Shown piece after piece: positions 37,750-51,350 of a DNA stretch of 64,000 nucleotides (the first letter of the stretch is position 1; every line of letters begins with the position of its first letter). Under the pieces are notes generated by a model. That model was not told where the DNA came from and searched no databases. It saw only the letters and a program-made list of their open reading frames with translations. This stretch comes from Candidatus Poribacteria bacterium (GTDB lineage Bacteria; Poribacteria; WGA-4E; WGA-3G): NCBI GenBank assembly GCA_965207855.1, contig OZ242310.1, forward strand, positions 3,444,202 through 3,508,201, in the 5' to 3' direction. The translations under genes and the position numbers were made by a program.

Positions 37750-38091
37750 TTAGTCGGTTCTGATAGAATCTGTTTCCAAATCTAAAACGAAGGTGATAGT
37801 GTTCTTAATTTGTGTCATCATATTGTCTGAAAGTTTGCCAAGCCTCCGCTCAAGTCGAACTTTCTCTATAGAACCTAATCCTGGCACATTAACGTAAGAT
37901 TGTTGATTAAGAAATCTCAATCGTGGAAGTGCTACTTCATACGGACTTTCCCTATATTGGGTTGTTAAGGGGATATAGATTATTAGATTTCGTGGTGGAT
38001 CTGGATCGTAACGGGATACCACAAGCACAGGTCGCGTTCTCGCGGTTAAACCGAGGTCGGCTAACCAAATCTCACCGGGATATAGGTTCAT
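37750..38091 (-). CDS. mazF: MazF/PemK-family type II toxin
   Basis: 113 aa. GEIWLADL...RPVLVVS is the PemK pattern. Confidence 0.75.
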   Translation of the reverse strand: MNLYPGEIWLADLGLTARTRPVLVVSRYDPDPPRNLIIYIPLTTQYRESPYEVALPRLRFLNQQSYVNVPGLGSIEKVRLERRLGKLSDNMMTQIKNTITFVLDLETDSIRTD

Positions 38092-38257
38092 CGAGTAGGT
38101 CCAAAACCTCCTGTTCTACAGCACGCGAGCGCATTATATCCAATGCATCTCGGTCTGCGAGATCAATGATTTCCAAAATTCGTTCCCTGACCGTCGCTGC
38201 AATATTCGGTTCCCATTCGCGTAATTTCGTGTCTAATCTCTCTGCTAACATATCCAT
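38072..38257 (-). CDS. Putative antitoxin (61 aa) overlapping the mazF start
   Basis: Small acidic protein with a 20-nt overlap on the toxin gene. Confidence 0.45.
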   Translation of the reverse strand: MDMLAERLDTKLREWEPNIAATVRERILEIIDLADRDALDIMRSRAVEQEVLDLLDEPISR

Positions 38258-38471: not shown

Positions 38472-40568
38472 TTACACCATTGGTGGTGTAATCTCATAGT
38501 TCACGCCTTTATAGCAGATAATCATGACGAGAGCATCTTTGGCAAGTTTAGTGTATCGCCCTAATTCTGGGAAATGCTGCCTCAGGCCGAAGTAGTCTTC
38601 GCTACCAAACTCAACCTGTTTTCGCTCCGATTTCCCATCATATTCGCTATCTACCCATATCTCACCGTGCCGATGGAATGTCTTACGTCCAATGTATTTC
38701 GTATTAGCATCCTGCCTCTTGTATCGAGCATATTTCCGTTCCTCTAATTCTCGGTTGTATCTAATCCTCTCGGAGATGGGTATCGCTTCCGTGTAGGCAT
38801 CTGAAATCCGTGAATCATCATACACTTTTCGTAGTGAACCATCGTCTGCGTCAACAAATGATGTGTAAGGTGTGGGTACCCCGTATTTCTTACTAAGGCG
38901 TTTAATCTCTTTATAAAGTTCGTCACTTCCATCACCGAGTGCAGCCTGGTCCACGAGTTCCGCTATTCTGCTTTGTGCCCAGAGATGTGGCAAGAAATCG
39001 TTGTCGGATTCAAGTTTGGAGAAATGGACGTTTTTGGAGAATTCCTGCTTTTCGTTGCCGATGATTCCATGAAGTTTCAGAACGGTGTGACCGTGGCCTT
39101 CATAGCGACCCAGAAGCGTCAACTGCTCCTCACGAAACAGGTCTGGCAGGTTTTTCGGGGTTAGTTCTTTCGTAATGATCTGTCCAAAATTGATTCCGAC
39201 ATCCACCAGCATCGGCTCGTTCATTTTCCTGAAGAGCGTAGACACAGCGACCTCAATGTCTTCATTTGGTTTTACATAAGTGCGCGAGCCACCGTTATCC
39301 GCCGCCATCTTGTCGAGTAAATGGTCGTTCACATCGTACCCTACACCGAATACAAAAATGCGAGATAGATTCCGGTTCGCTTTCCCGACATTTTCGAGGA
39401 TTCTGGCTGCGTTCGTTACACCAACGGTCGGTCGTCCATCGGTAAGGAAAACGATGATCCGTGGACGTTTAGGATCCGGTTTTTCGGCTAACGCAGTGAG
39501 TAGCGCATCATTGATGTTTGTCATACCGCGTCCTTCAATACCGTCAATAAATGCGAAGCCTTTTTCACGTTCACCTTTCACGTTAATGAGTTTTTCGGAC
39601 AAAACTGTAGAGTCGGGCCAGCGTTCACCACCAAACCACTCTTCGCCTCTGTTCAACCTATCAGCGAGCGAGGTGATGTCTTCGTTAAACAGAATGAGGT
39701 TGAACCGATCGCCGTCGTTCAGATTATAAACACAATAGCGGAGTGCTTCTTTCGCTTGTGCGACTTTTCGCCCGCTCATACTACCTGACCGATCTAAAGC
39801 GAAAATGAAGTCTTTCTCAGAAATCTCTGTCTGTTTTACTTTATACTTCGGCGAAACGAGCAGCATAAAGTATCCATCTTCTTTCTCATCGGCGCGGTGC
39901 GTAAGCAAGGTAATCCCGAAATTGTCATCTGAAACCGCATAGTAGCAGAGAAAGTCGTCGTCTGGGTCTACATCTGTACCTTCATAACTGATACGCACGT
40001 GGTGATCGTCCTTGCGGTTGATCGTAACCTCGTGTGAGGGTGAGTAAACCGTTCTGAGTTCATCTTCACTTTCAATCTCCATCTCAACGTGAAGATTTCC
40101 GATCAGTCCAGATGCCGATTTCGCAAGCGACAACGGATAGGTGTACTTAGCAAGGTCGCTCTCTGCGCTGATCACCTGAGAGTACTCAAATTTGACGTGT
40201 CGCATGGCGTTTGCTGGAATCCCCGCTACACGTGCCACAAACGCCCGCGTGCCGATGTGCTCCAAAATTGATCTGTTACCACCGTAACGGGCACTACGCC
40301 TATAAATCCGGTGGGATTCTTCTTGAGAGAGGAGTTCTCCGTTTATTGATTCTCCATCAATGGAGAGGGCAAGTTTTGAAAAGACCGCATCATCTGGCAA
40401 AGGAAAGAGGTAGATTCCATTGACTTCAAAGTCGTTTGGATTAACGAAAATCTGGTCTACCTTCGTTGTCGTGAGTTGGTTTTTAATGCCGATCTTGATG
40501 TGGTGGCGATCAATTTTTAAGGGGATCGCGCGACCCTCTGTGTGCTCAAGGGAAACTATAGTTAACAT
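38472..40568 (-). CDS. VIT (vault/inter-alpha-trypsin) + von Willebrand factor A domain protein; start re-called (track ORF runs to 40844 by reading through the IS terminus)
   Basis: MIDAS motif DRSGSMSG. ATG at about 40568 with AAGGAGG RBS. The upstream 92 codons of the track ORF are antisense to IS3 orfA and its IR. Confidence 0.7.
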   Translation of the reverse strand: MLTIVSLEHTEGRAIPLKIDRHHIKIGIKNQLTTTKVDQIFVNPNDFEVNGIYLFPLPDDAVFSKLALSIDGESINGELLSQEESHRIYRRSARYGGNRSILEHIGTRAFVARVAGIPANAMRHVKFEYSQVISAESDLAKYTYPLSLAKSASGLIGNLHVEMEIESEDELRTVYSPSHEVTINRKDDHHVRISYEGTDVDPDDDFLCYYAVSDDNFGITLLTHRADEKEDGYFMLLVSPKYKVKQTEISEKDFIFALDRSGSMSGRKVAQAKEALRYCVYNLNDGDRFNLILFNEDITSLADRLNRGEEWFGGERWPDSTVLSEKLINVKGEREKGFAFIDGIEGRGMTNINDALLTALAEKPDPKRPRIIVFLTDGRPTVGVTNAARILENVGKANRNLSRIFVFGVGYDVNDHLLDKMAADNGGSRTYVKPNEDIEVAVSTLFRKMNEPMLVDVGINFGQIITKELTPKNLPDLFREEQLTLLGRYEGHGHTVLKLHGIIGNEKQEFSKNVHFSKLESDNDFLPHLWAQSRIAELVDQAALGDGSDELYKEIKRLSKKYGVPTPYTSFVDADDGSLRKVYDDSRISDAYTEAIPISERIRYNRELEERKYARYKRQDANTKYIGRKTFHRHGEIWVDSEYDGKSERKQVEFGSEDYFGLRQHFPELGRYTKLAKDALVMIICYKGVNYEITPPMV

Positions 40569-40707
40569 GGTTTGCTCCTCCTTTATGCTAAAATACTTAT
40601 GATAGATTTGAAAACTAAATAGAACTTTGTACTGCCACCGGAAATTAGGGCCACCCTCTAAGGCAAGATTGTGATATACTAACAATCTATTTGAAAGGAG
40701 CATTCCG

Positions 40708-40995
40708 ATGGCGAAACGAACGAGATACACCCCCGAGTTTAAAGCAGCAGTCGTGCTGGAGGCCCTCAGCGGTGAAAGTTCAAAGCAGAACTCTGCCGGC
40801 GACATAACCTCAGCGAACAACAACTCTCGAAGTGGAAGCAGCAAGCGATTGAAAACTTTGCGTCTCTGTTTGGCTCCAAGGATAAAGCGTCAGCGGCGGA
40901 TGCGTCGCGTATCGCTCACCTTGAGCAACTCGTTGGGCGTCTCACTGTCGCCTTAGACATTGAAAAAAAAGCCGCGAAGTGGTTGCCCTAACGGC
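40708..40995 (+). pseudogene. IS3 orfA (transposase HTH) carrying an apparent 1-nt frameshift near 40780 in addition to the programmed site
   Basis: Frame 1 gives MAKRTRYTPEFKAAVVLEALSGESS. A second frame continues with the canonical KAELCRRHNLSEQQLSKWKQQAIENF...LDIEKKAAKWLP. Confidence 0.55.
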
Positions 40996-41833
40996 ATCAA
41001 AGAAACGAGAAATGGTGGCAAAAGTGCACAAGGCTTCTTCATATTCGATTCGGCAGATTTGTAAGACCCTCGGCTACAACCGGAATCTTCTCTATTATCA
41101 GCCGAAGCGCCCCCCTTCTCAAGAGGGACTGCGAACGAGAATAGAGGAGTTAGCGGCAACCTATCCAACATACGGATATAGACGTATCACGAAGTTGTTG
41201 GCGGCTGAAGGGCACACCGTTGGGTATAAGCGCGTCGCCCGGTTGATGAAAGAAGCCCATCTCTCGGTGGCTGTCAAACGTGCGTGTCAAACGACCCACG
41301 CCGCTGAGAGTCGGCAACCGTGGCAGAATCGCCTGAAGACCCTTGAGATCTGTCGTTGCGATCAGGTCTGGGTCGGCGATATCACCTACGTCCGCCTCAA
41401 CAGACGCTTCGTTTATGTCGCTCTGCTCATGGATGTCTTCACGCGCATGATTCGAGGGTGGAATCTCAGTCAACACTTGACGCAATCTTTGACCTTGCGC
41501 CCCTTAGAGCAAGCTTTAGACGACAGGGTTCCCGAGATTCATCACTCTGATCAAGGCGTGCAGTATCTTTCAAAGGACTATATCTCACTGCTGAGGCAGC
41601 ATGGCGTTGAGATTTCGGTCGCACACAGAGGACGCCCTTGGGAGAACGGATACGCTGAACGGTTGATCCGCACCCTCAAGGAAGAAGAAGTCCACCTTAA
41701 CGACTATCAGAACATCCACGAAGCCAGAGATCGCATCGAGCATTTTATCACACAGGTGTATCATCAGAAACGCCCACATTCGGCGTTAGGCTATTTGACA
41801 CCTATGGAATTTCAGCAACAAAACTTGTCTTAA
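40979..41833 (+). CDS. IS3 orfB (DDE integrase core)
   Basis: rve-type catalytic core with the DDE residues. Confidence 0.85.
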   Translation: MVALTASKKREMVAKVHKASSYSIRQICKTLGYNRNLLYYQPKRPPSQEGLRTRIEELAATYPTYGYRRITKLLAAEGHTVGYKRVARLMKEAHLSVAVKRACQTTHAAESRQPWQNRLKTLEICRCDQVWVGDITYVRLNRRFVYVALLMDVFTRMIRGWNLSQHLTQSLTLRPLEQALDDRVPEIHHSDQGVQYLSKDYISLLRQHGVEISVAHRGRPWENGYAERLIRTLKEEEVHLNDYQNIHEARDRIEHFITQVYHQKRPHSALGYLTPMEFQQQNLS

Positions 41834-42056
41834 CTTTACGGAATTTTGGCCCTAATAAAGGGTGGCACTACACTTAAAACGTGCGATGAATCGCAATACT
41901 ACAAGCAGGACCGTTCGTAGTAGAGCAATTTATTGCTCGTCAATTACCAAAATATTTTTTCAAATTTCAGTTTGTGCTACAGAACGTTTAAGGCATCTTC
42001 TACCTTTGCCTTATTGAACCACTTGTCAACAAGCTGCGTAAGTTCTAACGGGAGCT

Positions 42057-42950
42057 CTACGCCCTCGGATTAGCAAGAACAGTCATATCAACATTAAGCC
42101 GATCGGCAATGTCCTCCAGAGTGCTTGCCTTCCTTACAGTATTGGTCCCCGAAACTATGTAATATGTTCCTGGGTCAGTTTCAACTTTTCTTTGGGCTTT
42201 ATCCTCATAGTCACAATTTGCAATTAGAGGTATCCCATTAATATGTAAATCGAGTTTCTTGACTTTCTCGATTCCTAATTCCTTAATTACCTTGATAAAG
42301 GTATCTATTGCCGTATCCTCTGAAATCCAAGGCCCACCGTTTATTCGCACAGCGAGAATATTAGATTTTGTTTCGATGATAGGATCCGGTGGTTCACCGA
42401 ACAAACCGATCAAGGCCTCATATAAATTCTTACCAGGCATACCATTTCCAGCTTCAATGTAACGGATATATCCGGGGGTACAGCCTACACTCTTAGCCAC
42501 GTCATCCGGGGTCTTGTTATTTCGTGCCTCTCTAAGCCATTTTCCGAATGCAATGGCTTCTTCACTTTTAGTATGCTCTACATTGGTTTCTATGATTTCT
42601 TTATCTGAGGTCGGCGGCACATCTTCTGTAAAACGTTCCGTATATTGCACCGCATAATCCTCAATATATTGGATGATCCGGGGGGTTGCATGGAACCATT
42701 CACCGCGTGCCCGAAATCCTCCAAAATGCTCATGTATCCTCCTTTCTTCGCGGCGTGCTTCATCTTCTGTGTCAAACGGGAGGACTCCCATTGCCCATAT
42801 TGGAGATTCAGACCCGGTTTGGAGTGCTGTTTTGCGTAATGAGAGTTCTGTCTTTGTGTAACCAATCTTGATGAAGTCTACTTGCTCATCGCCAAACGTG
42901 CTCTTAGCAAAGAAATACACCAGGGGTTTCGGTTGATTTTGATCTGACAT
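42057..42950 (-). CDS. T5orf172 (GIY-YIG-superfamily)-like N-domain + XRE-type HTH + uncharacterised C-terminal domain protein
   Basis: The N-terminus VYFFAKSTFGDEQVDFIKIGYTKT...RK..LQTG matches the T5orf172/MUG113 pattern from memory. The central segment KWLREARNNKTPDDVAKSVGCTPGYIRYIE is an HTH. Confidence 0.5.
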   Translation of the reverse strand: MSDQNQPKPLVYFFAKSTFGDEQVDFIKIGYTKTELSLRKTALQTGSESPIWAMGVLPFDTEDEARREERRIHEHFGGFRARGEWFHATPRIIQYIEDYAVQYTERFTEDVPPTSDKEIIETNVEHTKSEEAIAFGKWLREARNNKTPDDVAKSVGCTPGYIRYIEAGNGMPGKNLYEALIGLFGEPPDPIIETKSNILAVRINGGPWISEDTAIDTFIKVIKELGIEKVKKLDLHINGIPLIANCDYEDKAQRKVETDPGTYYIVSGTNTVRKASTLEDIADRLNVDMTVLANPRA

Positions 42951-42955
42951 GATTG

Positions 42956-43228
42956 TTACTCCTTATTGGTAATGACTTTGGATTTACCTATTGGTAGATC
43001 ATCAGTTAAAAGCCGTTCAATACTGGTATCAAAAACTTTTGCTATCTGGTAGCATCTCCAAACCGTAGGAGAATCTTTTCCCTTTTCAAAGCGCGAGATC
43101 ATTATCTGCGATGTGCCGATCTTCTCAGCAAGTTCGACTTGAGTCAAATTTCGCATGACACGTTGCCTTCGGATATTCTCGCCGAGTCTTTCCCTAACGT
43201 GTTGAGGAATACGAGATTTGCTTTGCAT
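42956..43228 (-). CDS. XRE-family HTH transcriptional regulator (90 aa)
   Basis: LTQVELAEKIGTSQIMISRFEKG is an HTH_3 motif. It lies 5 nt upstream of the T5orf172-HTH gene. Confidence 0.8.
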   Translation of the reverse strand: MQSKSRIPQHVRERLGENIRRQRVMRNLTQVELAEKIGTSQIMISRFEKGKDSPTVWRCYQIAKVFDTSIERLLTDDLPIGKSKVITNKE

Positions 43229-43277
43229 AATACCCTCCGTTATTGCTAATAAATAATTAGTATTACTTATAATTTAG

Positions 43278-43318
43278 AATTATAAATACTAAATTATAAG
43301 TAATTATACTATATTGAT
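43278..43318. promoter_or_regulatory. Perfect palindromic operator ACTTATAATTTAG-N13-CTAAATTATAAGT upstream of the XRE gene
   Basis: 13-bp arms that are exact reverse complements, about 50 nt upstream of the XRE start. Confidence 0.6.
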
Positions 43319-43560
43319 CGCCTTAAGTCAAATTTTTTTGCATCTGTTCATGAAAAGGGTAAAGTTTACCCATTCATTACAAAAATGGTATTCCAATGTT
43401 TTTGAGGATCAGGAATGGTGAGTTAAGCTGGCGCGGTGTTTCTTTGCCCATGTACTTTTTAGAATTTCACCAGCATACCAGTAAGTTAATTTTCGACTAT
43501 TGAGGGAATTTTTCTTGCTTCGCGAAAGTATTGCGAGTTTATCCACTATTTAAGGAACCT

Positions 43561-45171
43561 CTAACCAAAATTTTCACTTGAAGGGCGTTCTTGCAACACA
43601 GGAACAACGTAACTCCGAATCGTCAACCCGTCTATCATCTCTGTCTCAGTCCGCGGTTTTGGTGCCTCGCGATGATCGAACACCACGTGGTAGCCTTCTG
43701 TTACATCTTCCGTTGATAGATACGCCGCGAGTTGTTGCTTCCCTGCGGTATAACCTCTTTCACTTCTCCAAATCTTTGTTTCAACGATGTATTTTTTTTG
43801 GTTGTGAAGGATGAGTAAATCCATCCGACCTCGCCCTGTAGGAACCTCCATATACATTGCCCCATTCACGCTGGCAACAAACTGGTCAAGATAGGCAAAA
43901 AGCAGATGCTGTCCGATGAACTCTTGCGGTGTTTCAGGGACTTGTAAGATCCTAAATCCTGCGCGGGCAATAAAGTCCCGGAAGTTATCCATGAGTCGTT
44001 CCATCTGAATGTGTCCGGTGGCCGTAAGATACTGAAATCCATCGGTCCCTTCGGGGAAGTAATCGTTCTCCAATCCGTTGATTACTGGCTTGAATGCTTG
44101 TAAAATGCAATGTAGATAAATTGGATTGTCAATTTTACACATTCTGTCACTGCCTCTCGCGAGTACTCCGTACGTTGCAAGTTCATTAATAAGTTCGTTG
44201 CGTAGGTTGAAAGGCACTCCTTCTTCGTACAATGCGATTCGCATCAAAAAGTTTTCAAAGCGAGGATTTCGACGGATATTGGTCGTCAAATGTGTTAGGT
44301 TGGTATTATTTTCATCCACGAGTTGTATGTGTGCTGCTGAAAAGTGTGCCAACGTGATCGTTTCAGTTTTCGGGATGTCCATCTCCTCTGTGAGTATCTG
44401 CGCGAATCGGTTGACAAGAAAGGGTTGGCCCCCTGTCTGTTTGTGAATGGCTTCAGATACTTCTGGAGCAAAAGCCTGTCCGACCTCAGCGGTATATTGT
44501 CCGAACAGCTCTTGCACCTGTATGAGTGTAAAATTGGGCAGAGCAAAATCGTCGTGGATATTGAACGGAGAAACAGAGCGATCATAGTCAAGTTGTGCAA
44601 TACTTTTAACACCCACAATGCCAAGACTGTGCGGACATTGAAACGTGGTGTCAGTGACGTAAGTATGTCGAAACGCGTGCAGAAAACCCTTCAACGCAGA
44701 TGTAGGGATACCATCAAACTCGTCAATAATGAGGACAACTTTCTGCCTGTTTTCCCCATCCTTCAGGAAACGCTGAACCTGTTCAAAGAATTCCATCATT
44801 GACAAATGGTTGGTTATCTGGGCATTGTCGAGAAAATGCTTTAGCGTTGCGTCGAGTGCCGCTCCGCGTTCGTAGAAAACGCGTTCAATTTCCTTGCAAA
44901 TTCGTTTGGTGAGAGACTCGTAAAATTCGGAACGATCACAATCTACATATATTTCAAAATTCAGTTGAATAGGAAAATAGGTTAGGTCTTCAGCGGCGAG
45001 TGCTGCAACGGCGCGCTGAAAGAAAGTCGTCTTCCCTGTCTGCCGCGGTGCGAAGATGACGATATAGCGTCCCTCTTTAACGCGCTTGATGAACTCAGTA
45101 AGTTCTTCAGTGCGAGGGACAACGTAATGCTGTTCAGGGTTCACAGGCCCCTGCGTACCAAATCTTCTCAT
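43561..45171 (-). CDS. AAA-ATPase-like (PF09820-type) N-domain + PD-(D/E)xK nuclease (PDDEXK_9-type) C-domain protein
   Basis: Walker A APRQTGKTT, Walker B LIIDEFD. The C-terminus GRGRMDLLILHN..YIVETK is a PD-(D/E)xK-like D...E.K. Confidence 0.6.
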   Translation of the reverse strand: MRRFGTQGPVNPEQHYVVPRTEELTEFIKRVKEGRYIVIFAPRQTGKTTFFQRAVAALAAEDLTYFPIQLNFEIYVDCDRSEFYESLTKRICKEIERVFYERGAALDATLKHFLDNAQITNHLSMMEFFEQVQRFLKDGENRQKVVLIIDEFDGIPTSALKGFLHAFRHTYVTDTTFQCPHSLGIVGVKSIAQLDYDRSVSPFNIHDDFALPNFTLIQVQELFGQYTAEVGQAFAPEVSEAIHKQTGGQPFLVNRFAQILTEEMDIPKTETITLAHFSAAHIQLVDENNTNLTHLTTNIRRNPRFENFLMRIALYEEGVPFNLRNELINELATYGVLARGSDRMCKIDNPIYLHCILQAFKPVINGLENDYFPEGTDGFQYLTATGHIQMERLMDNFRDFIARAGFRILQVPETPQEFIGQHLLFAYLDQFVASVNGAMYMEVPTGRGRMDLLILHNQKKYIVETKIWRSERGYTAGKQQLAAYLSTEDVTEGYHVVFDHREAPKPRTETEMIDGLTIRSYVVPVLQERPSSENFG

Positions 45172-45272: not shown

Positions 45273-46223
45273 CTAAAAACCAAGTTCCTTATTCACAATA
45301 TTCCGCAGCTCCTCACCCTTCAAATACCGTTCCAAGTTATCCAAGAAGAACCCAGTGATACGGCGCATGCGATGCTGTGAACCACCCGCAGAATGCGGTG
45401 AGATAATAACATTATCAAAATCCCACAACGGACTGTCTGCTGAAAGCGGTTCGACTTCGGTGACATCTAAACCTGCTGCAGCGATTGTTCCGGCTCGCAG
45501 AATCTCAATCAGATCGGGTTCGTTGACAATCGGACCGCGGGCGACGTTAATAAAGAACGCCGTTGGTTGCATCACAGAAAGGTTATCCTTATTAATCAGA
45601 CCCCGTGTCTCTTCGGTCAACGGACAGGCAATCATCACAACGTCCACTTGACTCATCATATTTGAAAGTTGATCCATTGGTAGCAATTCATCGACGTTAT
45701 CGGGTTTATCCGTGCGGTAGGCATCGACAGCCGTGACGTGCATATCAAACCCTTTGGCGCGCTTCGCCATCTGCATCCCGATACCACCCATCCCGACAAT
45801 ACCGATCTTGAACTCATCAATCTCAATCATAGGCATTGTCCTGGCACCACCCCATTGGTGTTTGTCCTGATTCCGAACGGATTCATGGATACCACGGGCT
45901 AAGCCGAGTAGAAGCGCAAACGCTTGATCTGCGACATGCGTTGCGTACAAGCCTGCGGCATTCGTCAAAATGACATCGCTCTCGCGGATTGCAGGATACA
46001 TGTGCCGATCCATACCCGCACTGGAGGATTGAATCCATTTAATATTGGGGAAATGCGGGAAAATGTCTTCGCTGCAATAACCGTAAAAAATATCGACATC
46101 TTTACCTTCTTCGATAAGTTCCTCGGTTGAGTTTGGGACAACGTAGGTGTGTTCGTCGCCAAGGATGCTTTCCAATCGCTCAAGAAGTGCGCCTTCAAGA
46201 CCTCTTTGAAGTAGAATTTTCAT
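45273..46223 (-). CDS. D-isomer-specific 2-hydroxyacid dehydrogenase family protein (start re-called at MKILLQ with AGGAGG RBS)
   Basis: NAD-binding GIVGMGGIGMQMAKRAKGFD, and catalytic R/E/H segments. Confidence 0.8.
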   Translation of the reverse strand: MKILLQRGLEGALLERLESILGDEHTYVVPNSTEELIEEGKDVDIFYGYCSEDIFPHFPNIKWIQSSSAGMDRHMYPAIRESDVILTNAAGLYATHVADQAFALLLGLARGIHESVRNQDKHQWGGARTMPMIEIDEFKIGIVGMGGIGMQMAKRAKGFDMHVTAVDAYRTDKPDNVDELLPMDQLSNMMSQVDVVMIACPLTEETRGLINKDNLSVMQPTAFFINVARGPIVNEPDLIEILRAGTIAAAGLDVTEVEPLSADSPLWDFDNVIISPHSAGGSQHRMRRITGFFLDNLERYLKGEELRNIVNKELGF

Positions 46224-46386
46224 ATTTTTAACTATTACCTCCTGGGCTGCCCTCCATTTCATTGCGGGCAGGTTTATGGTTAATTCCAAGCTGGATTGGT
46301 ACAGCGTGCGCGGTTCATGTTCATTAAGAACTTCGGGATAGTGGGATAGAGGCACGCGGGAAGGCACTTTGTATCCTTCTCTCTTT

Positions 46387-47283
46387 TTATTTCCACGGTG
46401 GTGTTTCCGGCAGCAATTCCTGAAATTTATCAATCAACGCCGTCTCATAAGCACCCGCATATTGCCCGTTGAAAAACTTTTCCAGCACTTCATCAAGGAA
46501 GAGCTGCCACGATGCGTCCTCAGAACCCGGATTGACAGGAAAAAACAGGGCACCCACATCTCGCGCCGCTTTCAGATCCCCCGGAGAATCGCCAAGCATC
46601 AGAACGTGGTTCTCCGCATATCTGTCTTTCGTCGTTATCGTAAGATGTTCCGTTTTCGTTCCCATCTCCTGTCCGGCAATCACAGCGACATAGTTATCAA
46701 TCTCGTGTTCCGCCCATTCGCGTTGGAGTGCTTCGTCGGGTGTAGCAGACACAACGATAACATCCGCCTTGTCCTGAAGCCCTTGTAAGGTCTCGCGTAC
46801 CCCAGGAAAAGGGGGCAGATTATAGACAATCTCTTCGACGCTTTCGTTCACGCCGAGACTCCATTCCATAACTTGGCTCAGTTCCTCGTGCCGCTCGCCG
46901 GTTGCGTTATCAATCGCTGCTTGTAGTGCTGGATTCCCCAGTTTCGTTTCGGTTTCAGACCATTCCCTTAAGTAGGGAAGTTCTGGCACCGCAACACCCA
47001 TATTCTGCACGAGTGGCATCTCGCGTAAGAAATCGCACACCAGTAGAATCGCCTTAAACCGGTTCGTGCCGCGCGTTGTTGAGTAGAGATTCACAAAATC
47101 CCATGCTTGATGCACCTGCCGTGAAATGGATGCTAAGCCGAAATGCTTGACGAGGTTCACACTGAAACAGTCGTTGTGCTTAACCTCCATACTATTGAAA
47201 ACACAACCGTCGGAATCAATTCCGACAAAGAACTCGTGTTGCGGTTGAAAATCGTATAATGCCTGTTGTGCTCCGTAATCCAT
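46387..47283 (-). CDS. HAD-superfamily hydrolase
   Basis: Motif I VGIDSDGCVF and motif IV LMLGDSPGDLKAARDVG. Confidence 0.65.
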   Translation of the reverse strand: MDYGAQQALYDFQPQHEFFVGIDSDGCVFNSMEVKHNDCFSVNLVKHFGLASISRQVHQAWDFVNLYSTTRGTNRFKAILLVCDFLREMPLVQNMGVAVPELPYLREWSETETKLGNPALQAAIDNATGERHEELSQVMEWSLGVNESVEEIVYNLPPFPGVRETLQGLQDKADVIVVSATPDEALQREWAEHEIDNYVAVIAGQEMGTKTEHLTITTKDRYAENHVLMLGDSPGDLKAARDVGALFFPVNPGSEDASWQLFLDEVLEKFFNGQYAGAYETALIDKFQELLPETPPWK

Positions 47284-48984: not shown

Positions 48985-49006
48985 TTATGGTAAACCTGAG
49001 AATTAA

Positions 49007-49558
49007 TTAGACATTTGCATATTCTTGAATAATCTCCTGAAGTGTTGAGTCGGGGTTATATTCGCGTTTGCGTTTGATATTGGCAAAATCATGTTCAATC
49101 GGATTATAATCCGGGGAATAAGGTGGCAGAAATAGCAGCCTCGCACCCGTCGCCTCTACGAGCTCTCGCGTCCGAGAAGTCTTGTGGAGCATCGCATTAT
49201 CTAAGATGAGGACATGACTCGGAGTCAAATGTGGACATAACTCCTCGGCTAACCAGTCGTTGAAATCGGCGGATTTACACCCGCCTTGAAGCAATCGCAC
49301 AGCTCTGAAAGTTCCTTGAAAACGCGCCGCAAGGAGTGTGGTCGTCCGGGTGCGTTGGCTCGAAATCAACCCATAGACGGCTTGACCTTTCGGGGCATAC
49401 CCGAAGCGTCTATGACTTTCGTCTCGGAAACCGCTTTCATCGGCGTAAACTACACATTTGCCTGCGCGCTTGAGCGTAGCGAGTTCCTGACGGTAGGCGG
49501 CGCGTTGTTTCGGACATCGCTCCTTATAGCCGAGTGTTTTTTTTTCGGGTAATCCCAA
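49007..49558 (-). CDS. IS630-family transposase, DDE (DDE_3) catalytic part
   Basis: ADESGF...ILDNAMLHKT...LPPYSPDYNPIE is the DD(35)E pattern. Confidence 0.75.
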   Translation of the reverse strand: MGLPEKKTLGYKERCPKQRAAYRQELATLKRAGKCVVYADESGFRDESHRRFGYAPKGQAVYGLISSQRTRTTTLLAARFQGTFRAVRLLQGGCKSADFNDWLAEELCPHLTPSHVLILDNAMLHKTSRTRELVEATGARLLFLPPYSPDYNPIEHDFANIKRKREYNPDSTLQEIIQEYANV

Positions 49559-49844
49559 GCGTTTTCAAGCCATAGTAAACACAAAACTCCGAGACGCCCA
49601 AATCAGCGGCGCGTTCGGCTTGCGTCTGATCCGGGAAGTCAGCGACATGTTTTTCAAGTGCCTGCAGATCAAGGGTTCTTGGACCCCGGGGCCCCGGTTT
49701 CTCACGCACCAACGGGTCTTCGGCATTCAACCATGTATACAGAGTTGCGCGTGCGATGGAAAACTGCTGGCAGGCTTCGGTCTTTTTACCGCCAGCTGCG
49801 ATGAACGCTAAAACGCATTTGCGGAAATCTGATGAATAAGCCAT
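49524..49844 (-). CDS. IS630-family transposase, N-terminal HTH part (joined to the DDE part by frameshift)
   Basis: HTH segment CQQFSIARATLYTWL, and a 35-nt overlap containing the A9 run. Confidence 0.7.
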   Translation of the reverse strand: MAYSSDFRKCVLAFIAAGGKKTEACQQFSIARATLYTWLNAEDPLVREKPGPRGPRTLDLQALEKHVADFPDQTQAERAADLGVSEFCVYYGLKTLGITRKKNTRL

Positions 49845-49907
49845 AATACCAAAAGGCTAACATAAATCTAATAAAGTGTCTATTTATTTATCTGGGTTAC
49901 CATAGTT

Positions 49908-51101
49908 TTAAAAGTTATTCTTTAGTAAAGTCAATGCTTGTTTAGGATGTGCGGCGAAATATCTCATTGTTTTAGCGATAGCTTCATATCCTGCTAAGCG
50001 TAATATAGAAAGTGCGGTGTTCCGCAAAGCTGCCATGACTGCCGGGATTGCGCCACAGCGGACTTGAGAAGCATCTTCACCGAGAAGCATGTCTCGGATC
50101 CAATGGGACTTATTTTCTATCGCCCAATGTCCGCGCTTGAGGCGTAAAAGGTCAGCTGCGGTGGCACGGTTAGGTTCAAGGCTCGTGATGCCATAGTGTG
50201 TCTGGCAGGCGACTTCTCCGGTTCGTAGGTTCTTGCGGGTGTATGTGCACTCGAAGACCTGCCGGACCCCTGGCCAGTCTATGTATTCATTAAGTGCGGT
50301 GCTTGCCGTCAAACGTCGTGTTTCAAAGCGTCCATGGGCTTGGTCAACGGTTTTGCGAGTGTCAAGGGTTTCTCCCCAGTCTTGGTGTTCTGCCTTGAGG
50401 ATGTTATAGGCGGTCTGAAAGGTTGTTTCGGTAGGTCGCCGAAACAACCTTTCAATATCTTCATAGACCTGTTTATGGTTGGCTTTGACGGGTAAAACGT
50501 AATCCCCGCCTGATTCTAAAACCGATGCGCAAAAACGGCGTTGCGTCAATAGAGCATCTGCTGTCACGACCTTGCCAGAAACATCAAACGCCTTGAGGAT
50601 TTCACGCGAGACGGGCACTTCATGCGTCTTCTCTGACATCGCTTTTTGCGTGAGAGTAATACCGAGTTCATGAGAAACGACTGACATCAAATGCGTGAAC
50701 TTCGCACCTTGTTTCTTGCTACCCCGTAAGGTCTTGCCATCTATAGCGACAGCCGTCAGACCGCCTTGACTGCCCCAACCCAAGTCCTCAAGCGCACTTG
50801 AAGCCCACTGCGTCAGCACGGTTTCTAAGTCATCAATGTCTAATCTACGAAAAAGATTGTAGAATGTTGCGGCACATGGTGTTTTCCTATGTGTGAACCC
50901 TAAGGCTTTTCTGAGTGCCTTGTAGGTGCGTCCGTATTCAGCAATAGCTGCATAGCTGCGATATCCAGACATCATGGCAATGATAGCGAGTGCGAGGATT
51001 GCCTTTAGTGGATGTCTTTTGCCTTTTTCCTTGCGTGGGTCTGCGACGGATGCTAACATATCAAGTAAGTGGCGAGAGGGTTTTCTCGTCATGAGCTTCA
51101 C
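49908..51101 (-). CDS. ISAs1-family (IS4-related, H-repeat-associated) transposase
   Basis: 397 aa. The N-terminal DDE_Tnp_1_assoc-like region (KRHPLKAILALAIIAMMSGYRSYAAIAEYG) and the C-terminal GHWAIENKSHWIRD are ISAs1 hallmarks. Confidence 0.75.
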   Translation of the reverse strand: MKLMTRKPSRHLLDMLASVADPRKEKGKRHPLKAILALAIIAMMSGYRSYAAIAEYGRTYKALRKALGFTHRKTPCAATFYNLFRRLDIDDLETVLTQWASSALEDLGWGSQGGLTAVAIDGKTLRGSKKQGAKFTHLMSVVSHELGITLTQKAMSEKTHEVPVSREILKAFDVSGKVVTADALLTQRRFCASVLESGGDYVLPVKANHKQVYEDIERLFRRPTETTFQTAYNILKAEHQDWGETLDTRKTVDQAHGRFETRRLTASTALNEYIDWPGVRQVFECTYTRKNLRTGEVACQTHYGITSLEPNRATAADLLRLKRGHWAIENKSHWIRDMLLGEDASQVRCGAIPAVMAALRNTALSILRLAGYEAIAKTMRYFAAHPKQALTLLKNNF

Positions 51102-51350
51102 CTCAAAGGTTGTGGTAAATTTTTAAGGTGAAGTATAGCATGTATGGCGTGAAAACTCACGCCATACATGCAGATATAAAAACATAAATCTGCCAAAGCA
51201 AAACTTAAAACTAAATGACCCTATCTCAGAGGCAGTCAGCTGTCGCTAAAAATCCAGATTAGACCCCTGGCACTTATGTTGCTCTGGATCACCAGAGAAG
51301 TGTCCTTCAAGGAACACATGAATCACCTTTGCTTTCGAGGGGTGAGGATG

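What the first reader, a model, noticed from the sequence alone, without database searches (positions are those of the whole stretch)
40628..45171. IS-flanked accessory island: XRE regulator with palindromic operator, T5orf172-HTH fusion protein and AAA-ATPase/PD-(D/E)xK protein, a candidate defence or abortive-infection module
The region between the IS3 element (40628..41872) and the IS630/ISAs1 pair (48987..51175) encodes three things. There is a 90-aa XRE repressor. Five nt downstream there is a 297-aa protein that joins a T5orf172/GIY-YIG-like N-domain, an XRE-type HTH and an unassigned C-terminal domain. There is also a 536-aa AAA-ATPase-like + PDDEXK_9-like nuclease protein. T5orf172 domains and ATPase-nuclease fusions recur in phage-defence islands. 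This particular three-gene combination, with an HTH embedded in the T5orf172 protein, is not one I recognise as a described system.
Basis: partly seen in the sequence, partly recalled or inferred. Interest (0 to 1): 0.65.

Follow-up and report, generated by a model that had tools for sequence, protein, structure and literature searches.

The report
Regulated methyl-reader nuclease beside ATPase-nuclease gene
In a sponge-symbiont (Poribacteria) chromosome, a small repressor gene controls a nuclease that carries a SeqA-like DNA-methylation-reader domain. It sits next to an unrelated ATPase-nuclease gene, in a variable hotspot that is conserved across the phylum, so these are two candidate defence genes and not one IS-bounded three-gene island.

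Summary
The three ORFs, the 5-nt spacing and the palindrome are real. The palindrome has 19 of 20 paired positions; 0 of 2000 shuffles reach that.

1. This is not an IS-bounded island. The order gnd-HAD-2-hydroxyacid dehydrogenase-[variable]-VIT/vWA is syntenic in many Poribacteria species that lack these ISs. The IS3 is a simple insertion with a 3-bp target duplication.
2. The three genes are not one module. XRE and the 297-aa gene form an operon with its own sigma70-like promoter and operator. The 536-aa gene is a separate unit, and its family occurs without any T5orf172 or XRE partner in 69 of 70 metagenomic loci, on plasmids of other phyla, and in some Poribacteria at this same locus.
4. 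The ATPase is AAA_35+DUF8371, with invariant Walker A/B and E..D..ExK motifs. It is not PF09820/PF08011.

No PADLOC system matches, and no phage carries the full-length protein.

Best reading: a controller-regulated, methylation-state-sensing T5orf172 (GIY-YIG-type) nuclease, plus an independent ATPase-nuclease. Function is untested. I rate it a new variant of known kinds, of moderate interest.

The parts
43303..43331 (-). sigma70-like promoter of the XRE operon (TTGACT, 17 nt spacer, TATAAT)
   Evidence: Matches 11 of 12 consensus positions. The same TTGACA-17-TATAAT architecture is present upstream of XRE in 8 orthologous loci.
43262..43304 (.). 43-bp palindromic operator candidate (20-nt arms, 3-nt centre) overlapping the -10 box
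   Evidence: inverted repeat I1, 95% complementary. None of 2000 shuffles reaches 19 pairs. Orthologous loci carry different direct or inverted repeats at the same position.
42956..43228 (-). XRE-family HTH regulator, 90 aa (controller-like)
   Evidence: HTH_3 at E 3.5e-14. PADLOC matches to HTH_VI, CapH and R-M 'Control_protein' models at E 1.9e-11 to 2.6e-7. Orthologues are 66-78% identical.
42057..42950 (-). 297-aa T5orf172(GIY-YIG-type)-HTH-SeqA-like protein, starting 5 nt after the XRE stop
   Evidence: The family has 233 full-length homologues, all in Poribacteria. Structure model pLDDT is 75.7.
42669..42920 (-). T5orf172/MUG113 nuclease domain (aa 11-94)
   Evidence: PF13455 scores 34.8 bits and PF10544 scores 25.5 bits, both above cut-off. 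Y12, K28-I29-G30, T32, R39, E69, E84-W85-F86 are invariant and H73 nearly so in 25 sequences. Phage T5orf172 and MUG113 proteins are the fold matches in BFVD.
42384..42539 (-). internal XRE-type HTH (aa 138-189)
42072..42365 (-). SeqA-C-like domain (aa ~196-293)
43357..43371 (-). terminator-like hairpin (GGGTAAACTTTACCC followed by a T-run) between the 536-aa gene and the XRE promoter
   Evidence: This is a consensus match only.
43561..45171 (-). 536-aa AAA_35 P-loop ATPase with a C-terminal DUF8371 / PD-(D/E)xK domain; a separate unit
   Evidence: PF14516 at E 2.5e-17. DUF8371 (PF28130) is precomputed on homologues. Walker A G46-K47, Walker B D150-E151 and E442/D451/E464-x-K466 are invariant from Poribacteria to Thermotogota, Bacteroidota and Cyanobacteria.
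43774..43848 (-). PD-(D/E)xK motif region of the 536-aa protein (aa 442-466)
   Evidence: invariant columns. Weak PDDEXK_9, NERD and Cas4 hits fall on the same residues.
40628..41872 (+). IS3-family element: a secondary insertion, not an island boundary
   Evidence: 26-nt terminal inverted repeats. CTT is duplicated at 40625-40627 and 41873-41875. rve and HTH_21 domains. The gap between the 297-aa gene and VIT-vWA is 114-406 nt in orthologous loci and 1488 nt here.

Best explanation
Two independent conflict-type units sit side by side in a chromosomal variable hotspot. The hotspot is conserved in position across Candidatus Poribacteria, between the 2-hydroxyacid dehydrogenase gene and VIT-vWA (or, in other clades, a nitrate-reductase-type molybdopterin oxidoreductase gene).

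Unit 1 is a two-gene operon. The 90-aa XRE protein binds the palindrome that overlaps its own -10 box. This keeps transcription of itself and of the downstream nuclease low, in the manner of R-M controller (C) proteins. The 297-aa protein has a 'beads on a string' layout: an N-terminal T5orf172 (GIY-YIG-type) catalytic domain, a disordered linker, an XRE-type HTH, and a SeqA-C-like domain. I infer that the HTH and the SeqA-like domain choose the DNA by sequence and by adenine-methylation state, and that the tethered nuclease then cuts nearby. That would make it a type IV-like or methylation-state-sensing restriction nuclease with no cognate methylase.

Unit 2 is the 536-aa AAA_35-DUF8371 protein. 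It is a stand-alone NTP-driven PD-(D/E)xK nuclease from a widespread and often tandemly duplicated family.

Shown: the anatomy, the conservation of motifs, the synteny, the independence of the two units, and the SeqA-like homology.
Inferred: repression by XRE, nuclease activity, methylation sensing, and anti-phage or anti-plasmid function.
For: - Operon anatomy, promoter and significant palindrome.
- The promoter is conserved in 8 orthologous loci, each with repeats between the -10 box and the ribosome-binding site.
- The XRE protein matches C-protein and CapH models.
- T5orf172/MUG113 hits are above cut-off and the motif residues are invariant.
- T5orf172 is an experimentally active GIY-YIG subfamily: PMC10448857, PMC8263062.
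- Linker pLDDT is below 50 at aa 108-126.
- The C-terminal domain resembles SeqA by fold and by profile.
- Its family is fused to the restriction modules HSDR_N, Mrr_cat, ResIII-helicase and DndB, and to MTaX1. MTaX1 is described as a putative modified-DNA discriminator in R-M systems (PMC10853773). T5orf172 is listed among restriction-type nucleases fused to m6A readers (PMC4738411).
- Paralogues of the 297-aa gene sit at the end of a type I R-M operon (L017), beside a type IIG R-M gene (L019) and before a cNMP-TIR gene (L005).
- Degraded copies are frequent (L007, L008, L021, L023, L024, L025).
- GC content dips to 0.36-0.44 across the unit.
- The ATPase is independent of the operon. Its catalytic motifs are invariant.
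Against: - No functional data exist.
- No known defence model matches.
- No methyltransferase was found next to the operon, so the methylation logic cannot be closed.
- The 297-aa family is confined to one phylum and is largely vertically inherited at one locus, at 50-79% identity. That also fits a lineage-specific housekeeping or regulatory role.
- Adjacency of the ATPase and the 297-aa gene is retained in about 14 of 25 species loci and survives several rearrangements. Some functional coupling therefore cannot be excluded.
Confidence: 0.5

Rival explanations
1. One reading: XRE, the T5orf172-HTH protein and the ATPase-nuclease form one integrated three-gene defence or abortive-infection system.
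For: The trio AAA_35-XRE-T5orf172 occurs in that order and on one strand in the window and in L001, L003, L004, L006, L008, L015 and L062. In L007, L008 and L043 a second paralogue of the 297-aa gene flanks the ATPase on the other side. Adjacency survives insertion of a 1111-aa NOV_C protein.
Against: All of these loci are orthologous positions in one phylum, so they are not independent observations. The two units have separate transcription signals. The ATPase occurs without the other two genes in L042, L049 and L050, in 69 of 70 metagenomic loci, and on plasmids of other phyla. The 297-aa gene occurs without the ATPase or XRE in L005, L012, L017, L019, L020 and L021, and without XRE in L014 and L022.
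Confidence: 0.12
2. The 297-aa gene is a free-standing GIY-YIG-type homing endonuclease gene, or a domesticated descendant that now acts mainly as a DNA-binding regulator (as PLE CapR or I-TevI autorepression do). It would spread or persist selfishly and would not defend the host.
For: - The architecture of nuclease, linker and HTH-containing DNA-binding region is that of I-TevI and of phage T5orf172 homing endonuclease genes (PMC10448857).
- Genomes carry several paralogues in unrelated contexts (L017 and L019 come from one MAG).
- One clade sits 20-26 nt after the dehydrogenase stop codon.
- Duplicated 3' fragments of that dehydrogenase gene occur in L001 and L018.
- Presence is patchy and pseudogenes are frequent.
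Against: - No full-length relatives occur in phages or viral contigs.
- The gene stays at the same locus across species at 50-79% identity with invariant catalytic residues.
- A dedicated repressor with an operator is atypical for homing endonuclease genes.
- The SeqA-like domain family is otherwise fused to restriction-type modules.
- Homing needs two alleles in one cell, which is rare for bacterial chromosomes (established knowledge).
Confidence: 0.2
3. A lineage-specific housekeeping role in DNA metabolism. For example, a SeqA/MutH-like factor that reads hemimethylated DNA after replication and nicks or organises it, with the XRE protein acting as an ordinary regulator.
For: The C-domain is SeqA-like. 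Inheritance is vertical, next to metabolic genes, in many Poribacteria. Sequence conservation is high.
Against: - Many species loci carry truncated or frameshifted copies, or lack the gene.
- Copy number varies and paralogues lie next to R-M genes.
- The SeqA N-terminal oligomerisation domain is absent.
- The locus is a rearrangement hotspot holding ISs and a NOV_C/sacsin-like gene.
Confidence: 0.1
4. XRE and the 297-aa protein form a type II toxin-antitoxin pair, with a nuclease toxin neutralised by the XRE antitoxin protein.
For: A small HTH gene lies directly upstream, 5 nt from a potentially toxic nuclease, and has an autoregulatory palindrome. The XRE protein gives weak hits to HipB, MqsA, HigA and PezA antitoxin models.
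Against: Apart from the HTH, the XRE protein has only a ~15-aa tail, and tblastn alignments to it stop before that tail in several orthologues, at 83-90% coverage. No toxin-binding domain is evident. Two loci keep the 297-aa gene intact without XRE (L014, L022), as do paralogues elsewhere. A lethal toxin would not tolerate that.
Confidence: 0.08

Closest known systems
Controller (C) protein-regulated restriction endonuclease operons (e.g. C.AhdI, C.BclI, C.Esp1396I systems)
   Same: A small XRE-type HTH gene lies immediately upstream of, and is co-transcribed with, a nuclease gene. A palindromic operator overlaps the controller's own promoter. The XRE protein matches PADLOC 'Control_protein' models.
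Type IV / modification-dependent restriction enzymes built as reader domain plus nuclease (e.g. Mrr, SRA-HNH, DpnI-type)
   Same: A nuclease domain is fused to a domain homologous to a methyl-adenine reader (SeqA-C). There is no methylase partner. The same reader family is fused to Mrr_cat and HSDR_N nucleases in other proteins.
   Different: The combination T5orf172 + XRE-HTH + SeqA-like was not found described in the papers I searched. Ligand specificity is unknown. The position aligned to SeqA N150 is not conserved.
SeqA (hemimethylated-GATC binding protein of gamma-proteobacteria)
   Same: The C-terminal DNA-binding domain matches by fold and by the motif ...YW(V/I)I(T/S)xTxTxxK...L(E)xI....
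Phage T5orf172 / GIY-YIG homing endonucleases and derivatives (I-TevI, ICP1 T5orf172 HEGs, Odn, PLE CapR)
   Same: The catalytic domain family is the same. The modular layout of nuclease, linker and DNA-binding domain (with an HTH, as in I-TevI) is the same (PMC10448857, PMC8263062, PMC8096241). BFVD fold matches to the N-domain are phage T5orf172 and MUG113 proteins.
   Different: This gene is chromosomal, phylum-restricted and vertically retained, and has a dedicated repressor. Its DNA-binding part is XRE-HTH + SeqA-like rather than a Zn-finger/CapR or RepA_N domain. No phage homologue spans the full length.
AAA_35 (PF14516) 'AAA-like domain' proteins with DUF8371; more loosely, the PF09820+PF08011 ATPase-PDDEXK_9 proteins
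   Same: The 536-aa protein is a full-length member of AAA_35+DUF8371: 24-29% identity over 90-99% of its length to plasmid-borne proteins of Marinitoga, Haliscomenobacter, Pseudanabaena and Clostridium, with invariant ATPase and nuclease motifs.
   Different: No member has a tested function, so nothing can be said about mechanism beyond the motifs.

Membership tests
T5orf172 / MUG113 (GIY-YIG-type nuclease superfamily) | Pfam model matched above the curated cut-off | tested here: met
   PF13455 scores 34.8 bits against a cut-off of 22.3. PF10544 scores 25.5 bits against a cut-off of 20.
T5orf172 / MUG113 (GIY-YIG-type nuclease superfamily) | Conserved core motif including the catalytic Glu (E-W-F), Arg and (K)IG(Y)T | tested here: met
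   Y12, K28-I29-G30, T32, R39, E69, E84-W85-F86 are invariant and H73 nearly invariant in 25 homologues. The catalytic role of the Glu is taken from PMC10448857 and PMC8263062.
T5orf172 / MUG113 (GIY-YIG-type nuclease superfamily) | DNA cleavage activity | not testable with these tools
   Needs biochemistry.
C-protein-controlled restriction-modification system | Small HTH controller upstream of, and co-oriented with, the nuclease gene, with a repeat operator at its own promoter | tested here: met
C-protein-controlled restriction-modification system | Cognate DNA methyltransferase in the same locus | tested here: not met
   The neighbours are AAA_35, 2-hydroxyacid dehydrogenase, IS3 and VIT-vWA. 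Pfam scans of these found no methylase domain.
Type IV (modification-dependent) restriction enzyme | Nuclease fused to a modified-DNA reader domain, with no methylase | tested here: inconclusive
Binding to modified DNA is not shown, and the position aligned to SeqA N150 is not conserved.
Type IV (modification-dependent) restriction enzyme | Cleavage only of modified DNA | not testable with these tools
   Needs assays on DNA prepared with and without Dam-type methylation, and on hemimethylated DNA.
SeqA family | C-terminal DNA-binding domain homologous to PF03925 | tested here: met
SeqA family | N-terminal oligomerisation domain and stand-alone ~180-aa protein | tested here: not met
   The N-terminal part is T5orf172 plus HTH.
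Free-standing GIY-YIG homing endonuclease gene | Nuclease, linker and DNA-binding domain architecture | tested here: met
   (linker pLDDT below 50).
Free-standing GIY-YIG homing endonuclease gene | Sporadic presence or absence at a fixed intergenic site, with a cleavable empty allele | tested here: inconclusive
   Presence is patchy and copies are degraded, but orthologues are retained across species. Cleavage of empty sites is not testable here.
Free-standing GIY-YIG homing endonuclease gene | Residence in phage, intron or other mobile genomes | tested here: not met
   IMG/VR gives only N-domain matches of 26-38% identity. There is no tblastn match in 50,697 phage records.
Known anti-phage systems (PADLOC-DB v2) | Significant full-length match of the effector proteins to a system model | tested here: not met
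   The best hits are PDC-S57 at E 0.002 (partial) for the 297-aa protein and PDC-S20 at E 1.8e-4 (about 50 aa) for the 536-aa protein.
AAA_35 + DUF8371 family | PF14516 above cut-off, with a C-terminal DUF8371 region carrying E..D..ExK | tested here: met
   PF14516 scores 63.1 bits against a cut-off of 27. PF28130 is precomputed on 89%-identical homologues. The motifs are invariant.
   PF09820 scores 15.1 bits (cut-off 26.1) and PF08011 scores 15.3 bits (cut-off 25.5).
IS-bounded accessory island / composite transposon | Cargo absent from related genomes that lack the ISs; matching IS copies at both ends | tested here: not met
   The cargo is syntenic in Poribacteria loci without the ISs. The ISs belong to different families: IS3 on one side, IS630 and ISAs1 on the other. 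The IS3 has its own 3-bp target duplication.
Type II toxin-antitoxin (XRE antitoxin + toxin) | Antitoxin has a toxin-neutralising domain, and the toxin is never found intact without the antitoxin | tested here: not met
   The XRE protein is an HTH plus a short tail. Intact 297-aa genes lack XRE in L014, L022, L005, L012, L017 and L019.

The most novel reading that the evidence does not exclude
The 297-aa protein founds an undescribed class of restriction-like nucleases. In this class a SeqA-type domain reads the adenine-methylation or hemimethylation state of DNA and directs a T5orf172 nuclease, under C-protein-like control. The wider SeqA-C-like domain family (844 cluster representatives, often in tandem, fused to HSDR_N, Mrr_cat, helicase, DndB and MTaX1 modules) would then be a general, so far under-recognised methylation-reader module of bacterial immunity. 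Separately, AAA_35-DUF8371 would be a widespread single-gene ATP-dependent defence nuclease.
Probability: 0.3. Interest if true: 0.65.

Novelty: new variant of a known kind. Interest (0 to 1): 0.45.

Why it matters
If the inference holds, it adds a new reader-nuclease combination (SeqA-like plus T5orf172) to modification-sensing immunity. It also flags a sizeable, uncharacterised SeqA-C-like domain family that recurs in restriction-type proteins.

The work gives a concrete example of a positionally conserved defence hotspot in Poribacteria, an uncultivated sponge-symbiont phylum known for dense defence gene content.

It corrects a tempting misreading. ISs near a gene cluster do not make that cluster an island, and adjacency within a single lineage does not make a multi-gene system.

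Tried and rejected
- An exact-sequence look-up of the 297-aa protein found no contig.
- The narrow Poribacteria-only C-domain profile did not reach SeqA in the PDB; it gave only chance septin hits at E about 0.1. A broader 43-sequence profile was needed.
- The afdb50 fold library was unavailable.
- A sequence search of the PDB with the 536-aa protein gave only P-loop noise, to RecA.
- A literature search for 'AAA_35' returned accession-number noise.
- BLASTP of XRE against the internal HTH of the 297-aa protein showed no specific relatedness, so the idea that the two share one operator specificity has no support.
- PHROGs gave only generic regulator hits and one family of unknown function for the N-domain.
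- I considered and rejected a composite transposon, a prophage or phage regulatory cassette, the PF09820/PF08011 assignment, and an obligate three-gene system.

Full report
**1. What is in the sequence.**

All three ORFs exist as described, on the minus strand:
- an XRE-type gene at 42956..43228 (90 aa);
- a 297-aa gene at 42057..42950;
- a 536-aa gene at 43561..45171.

The XRE stop codon and the next ATG are 5 nt apart (CAATC), and an AAGGAG ribosome-binding site overlaps the stop. Upstream of XRE there is a near-consensus promoter, TTGACT-17-TATAAT, at 43331..43303 (11 of 12 positions). Directly overlapping its -10 box is a palindrome with 20-nt arms at 43262-43304. With 19 of 20 positions paired, it is not reached by any of 2000 shuffles, either of the whole intergenic region or of its AT-rich core. 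A terminator-like hairpin at 43371..43357 lies between the 536-aa gene and this promoter. The XRE operon therefore looks like its own transcription unit.

**2. Domain calls.**

The 90-aa protein is a plain XRE HTH (HTH_3, E 3.5e-14). In PADLOC it matches only generic regulators: HTH_VI, CapH and R-M 'Control_protein'.

The 297-aa protein matches MUG113 and T5orf172 at aa 11-94 and HTH_3/HTH_31 at aa 138-189, all above cut-off.

The 536-aa protein is AAA_35 (PF14516, E 2.5e-17). Its C-terminal region is DUF8371 (PF28130) on close homologues.

In an alignment running from Poribacteria to Marinitoga, Haliscomenobacter and Pseudanabaena plasmid proteins, these residues are invariant: Walker A (G46-K47), Walker B (D150-E151), and E442...D451...E464-x-K466. 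An active ATPase plus PD-(D/E)xK nuclease is the natural reading. No PADLOC, NCBIfam or PHROGs model identifies either large protein as a known defence protein.

**3. The 'unassigned' C-terminal domain is SeqA-like.**

An AlphaFold model of the full protein has pLDDT 75.7. It shows three folded parts and a linker of very low confidence at aa 108-126. The C-domain modelled alone has pLDDT 84.

A profile of the domain finds 844 cluster representatives among 1.84 billion proteins. The domain usually lies at the C-terminus and is often present in two or three tandem copies. Of the 149 best representatives, the Pfam matches are:
- 12 match PF03925 (SeqA C-terminal domain);
- 7 carry MTaX1;
- 7 carry HSDR_N;
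- 4 carry Mrr_cat;
- others carry ResIII/helicase, DndB, or FRG plus TPR.

A broader 43-sequence profile hits SeqA as the top five PDB sequences (E 0.002-0.06). It aligns SeqA 'YWVITNTNTGRKCSMIEHIMQSM' with the window's 'YYIVSGTNTVRKASTLEDIADRL'. This is the SeqA segment that, from my memory of the SeqA-DNA structures, carries the methyl-adenine contacts N150 and N152. The first of these positions is Gly here and His in the broad profile consensus, so the ligand need not be hemimethylated GATC.

The literature describes MTaX1 as a probable modified-DNA discriminator of R-M systems (PMC10853773). It lists T5orf172 among restriction-type nuclease domains fused to m6A readers, and SeqA among the partners of such readers (PMC4738411).

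**4. Where the genes occur.**

The 297-aa protein has 233 full-length homologues at 56-79% identity. A scan of one genome per species found 25 loci, all in Candidatus Poribacteria.

Catalytic-type residues are invariant: Y12, K28-I29-G30, T32, R39, E69 and E84-W85-F86, with H73 nearly invariant.

IMG/VR holds only N-domain relatives at 26-38% identity. GenBank phages hold none. BFVD fold matches are phage T5orf172 or MUG113 proteins covering the N-domain only.

**5. The region is not an IS-bounded island.**

tblastn of the window's proteins against the 25 loci shows a conserved, same-strand gene order: WD40 - gnd - HAD - 2-hydroxyacid dehydrogenase - [variable] - VIT/vWA - PemK. Flanking genes are typically 75-93% identical. 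In another clade the right flank is a molybdopterin oxidoreductase/MFS/NirA block.

The gap between the 297-aa gene and VIT-vWA is 114-406 nt elsewhere and 1488 nt here. The difference is the IS3 element, 40628..41872. It has 26-nt terminal inverted repeats and its own CTT target duplication.

Likewise gnd and the WD40 gene are 51-520 nt apart elsewhere. Here they are separated by the IS630 and ISAs1 elements.

The ISs are therefore secondary insertions into a vertically inherited region that also contains housekeeping genes.

**6. The variable segment behaves as a hotspot holding two independent units.**

Across species the segment holds different combinations of the following:
- a B-type paralogue of the 297-aa gene, 20-26 nt after the dehydrogenase stop codon;
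- one or two AAA_35 genes;
- XRE plus an A-type paralogue (the arrangement in the window);
- a 1111-1140-aa NOV_C/sacsin-like protein;
- WD40 proteins and IS fragments.

The promoter TTGACA-17-TATAAT upstream of XRE is conserved in eight orthologous loci. Each of these has repeats between the -10 box and the ribosome-binding site, but the repeat sequences differ, and so does their type (direct or inverted).

Evidence against an obligate trio:
- AAA_35 genes occur without the 297-aa gene at this very locus (L049, L050) and elsewhere in the genome (L042).
- Of 70 metagenomic AAA_35-DUF8371 loci (23-80% identity), only one has XRE and the 297-aa gene. That locus is Poribacteria-like, and a transposase has inserted between the two genes.
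- Plasmid-borne homologues in other phyla have unrelated neighbours, in one case a type I R-M system.
- Copies of the 297-aa gene in other contexts carry neither XRE nor the ATPase. They sit after a type I R-M operon (L017), beside an Eco57I-type R-M gene (L019), before a cNMP-binding TIR gene (L005), near SbcCD (L021), or among metabolic genes (L012).
- Intact A-type copies lack XRE in L014 and L022.
- About six copies are truncated or frameshifted (L007, L008, L021, L023, L024, L025).

**7. Most likely mechanism.**

Shown: a two-gene operon with an autoregulatory-looking operator; a nuclease domain with intact motifs, tethered by a flexible linker to an HTH and a SeqA-like domain; and a separate ATPase-nuclease gene.

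Inferred: XRE represses the operon, as R-M controller proteins do. The HTH and SeqA-like modules select DNA by sequence and adenine-methylation state. The T5orf172 domain cuts nearby. The biological role is restriction of foreign DNA without a cognate methylase, which would make it type IV-like.

T5orf172 nucleases are experimentally active, modular enzymes in phage-satellite conflicts, and some are domesticated as repressors (PMC10448857, PMC8263062, PMC8096241). That second fact keeps the homing-endonuclease or regulator rival alive.

The AAA_35-DUF8371 protein is best read as an independent NTP-dependent nuclease of unknown trigger.

**8. Verdict.**

The 'island' and 'three-gene system' interpretations are not supported. 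The 'candidate defence' reading survives for two separate units, on indirect evidence only.

The T5orf172 + HTH + SeqA-like architecture under a controller-like repressor was not found described in the papers I searched. I class it as a new variant of known kinds (reader-nuclease restriction proteins and C-protein control), of moderate interest.

Noticed in passing
window 37750..38257 (-): A PemK/MazF-type toxin gene (113 aa, PF02452 at E 7e-14) overlaps by 20 nt a 61-aa upstream ORF with no Pfam hit, which is probably its antitoxin. The toxin is conserved downstream of VIT-vWA in L001 and L003.
   Followed up: partly
window 38472..40568 (-): A VIT + vWA protein of about 698 aa. The 790-aa ORF listed mechanically runs into the IS3 element; homologues start at 'MLTIVSLEH'. 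It is 77-80% identical across Poribacteria and is the usual right-hand neighbour of the XRE operon.
   Followed up: partly
window 48985..51350: An IS630-family element whose transposase is split into two overlapping ORFs (49524..49844 HTH_Tnp_IS630; 49007..49558 DDE_3), followed by an ISAs1-type DDE transposase (49908..51101). Both are inserted in the gnd/WD40 intergenic region, which is only 51-520 nt long in other species.
   Followed up: partly
window 45273..46433 (-): The mechanically listed 386-aa ORF of the 2-hydroxyacid dehydrogenase starts at a TTG. Homologues are 315-316 aa and align from residue 71, so the real start is probably the ATG at 46223. Only 101 nt separate its stop codon from the start of the 536-aa gene, so the ATPase gene may be co-transcribed with it.
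   Followed up: no
L001 8898..9122; L018 13618..13896: Duplicated 3'-end fragments of the 2-hydroxyacid dehydrogenase gene (72-74% identical to aa ~294-386) lie inside the variable region. This hints at cassette insertion or recombination at the end of that gene.
   Followed up: partly
L048 1585..2856: A 423-aa chimeric ORF sits exactly where the 297-aa gene sits in the window. It consists of ADP-ribosylglycohydrolase, an XRE-like segment, and the HTH segment of the 297-aa family (57% identity to aa 120-189). It ends where the SeqA-like domain would begin.
   Followed up: partly
L043 6112..6297; L049 6804..6989; L050 6804..6989; L048 6810..6989: A conserved ORF of about 60 aa lies 12 nt upstream of AAA_35-DUF8371 genes in several Poribacteria. 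It has no Pfam hit and is absent from the window. It may be a small partner or leader peptide of the ATPase gene.
   Followed up: no
L043 1263..4598; L015 4150..7506; probably L018 13993..17415: A 1111-1140-aa protein with a NOV_C domain and a weak sacsin-type match occupies the same hotspot in some species. This adds to the defence-island-like character of the interval.
   Followed up: partly
L056, L060, L069, L073; L043; L050: AAA_35-DUF8371 genes are often present as tandem pairs of diverged paralogues, both in Poribacteria and in distant metagenomic lineages.
   Followed up: no
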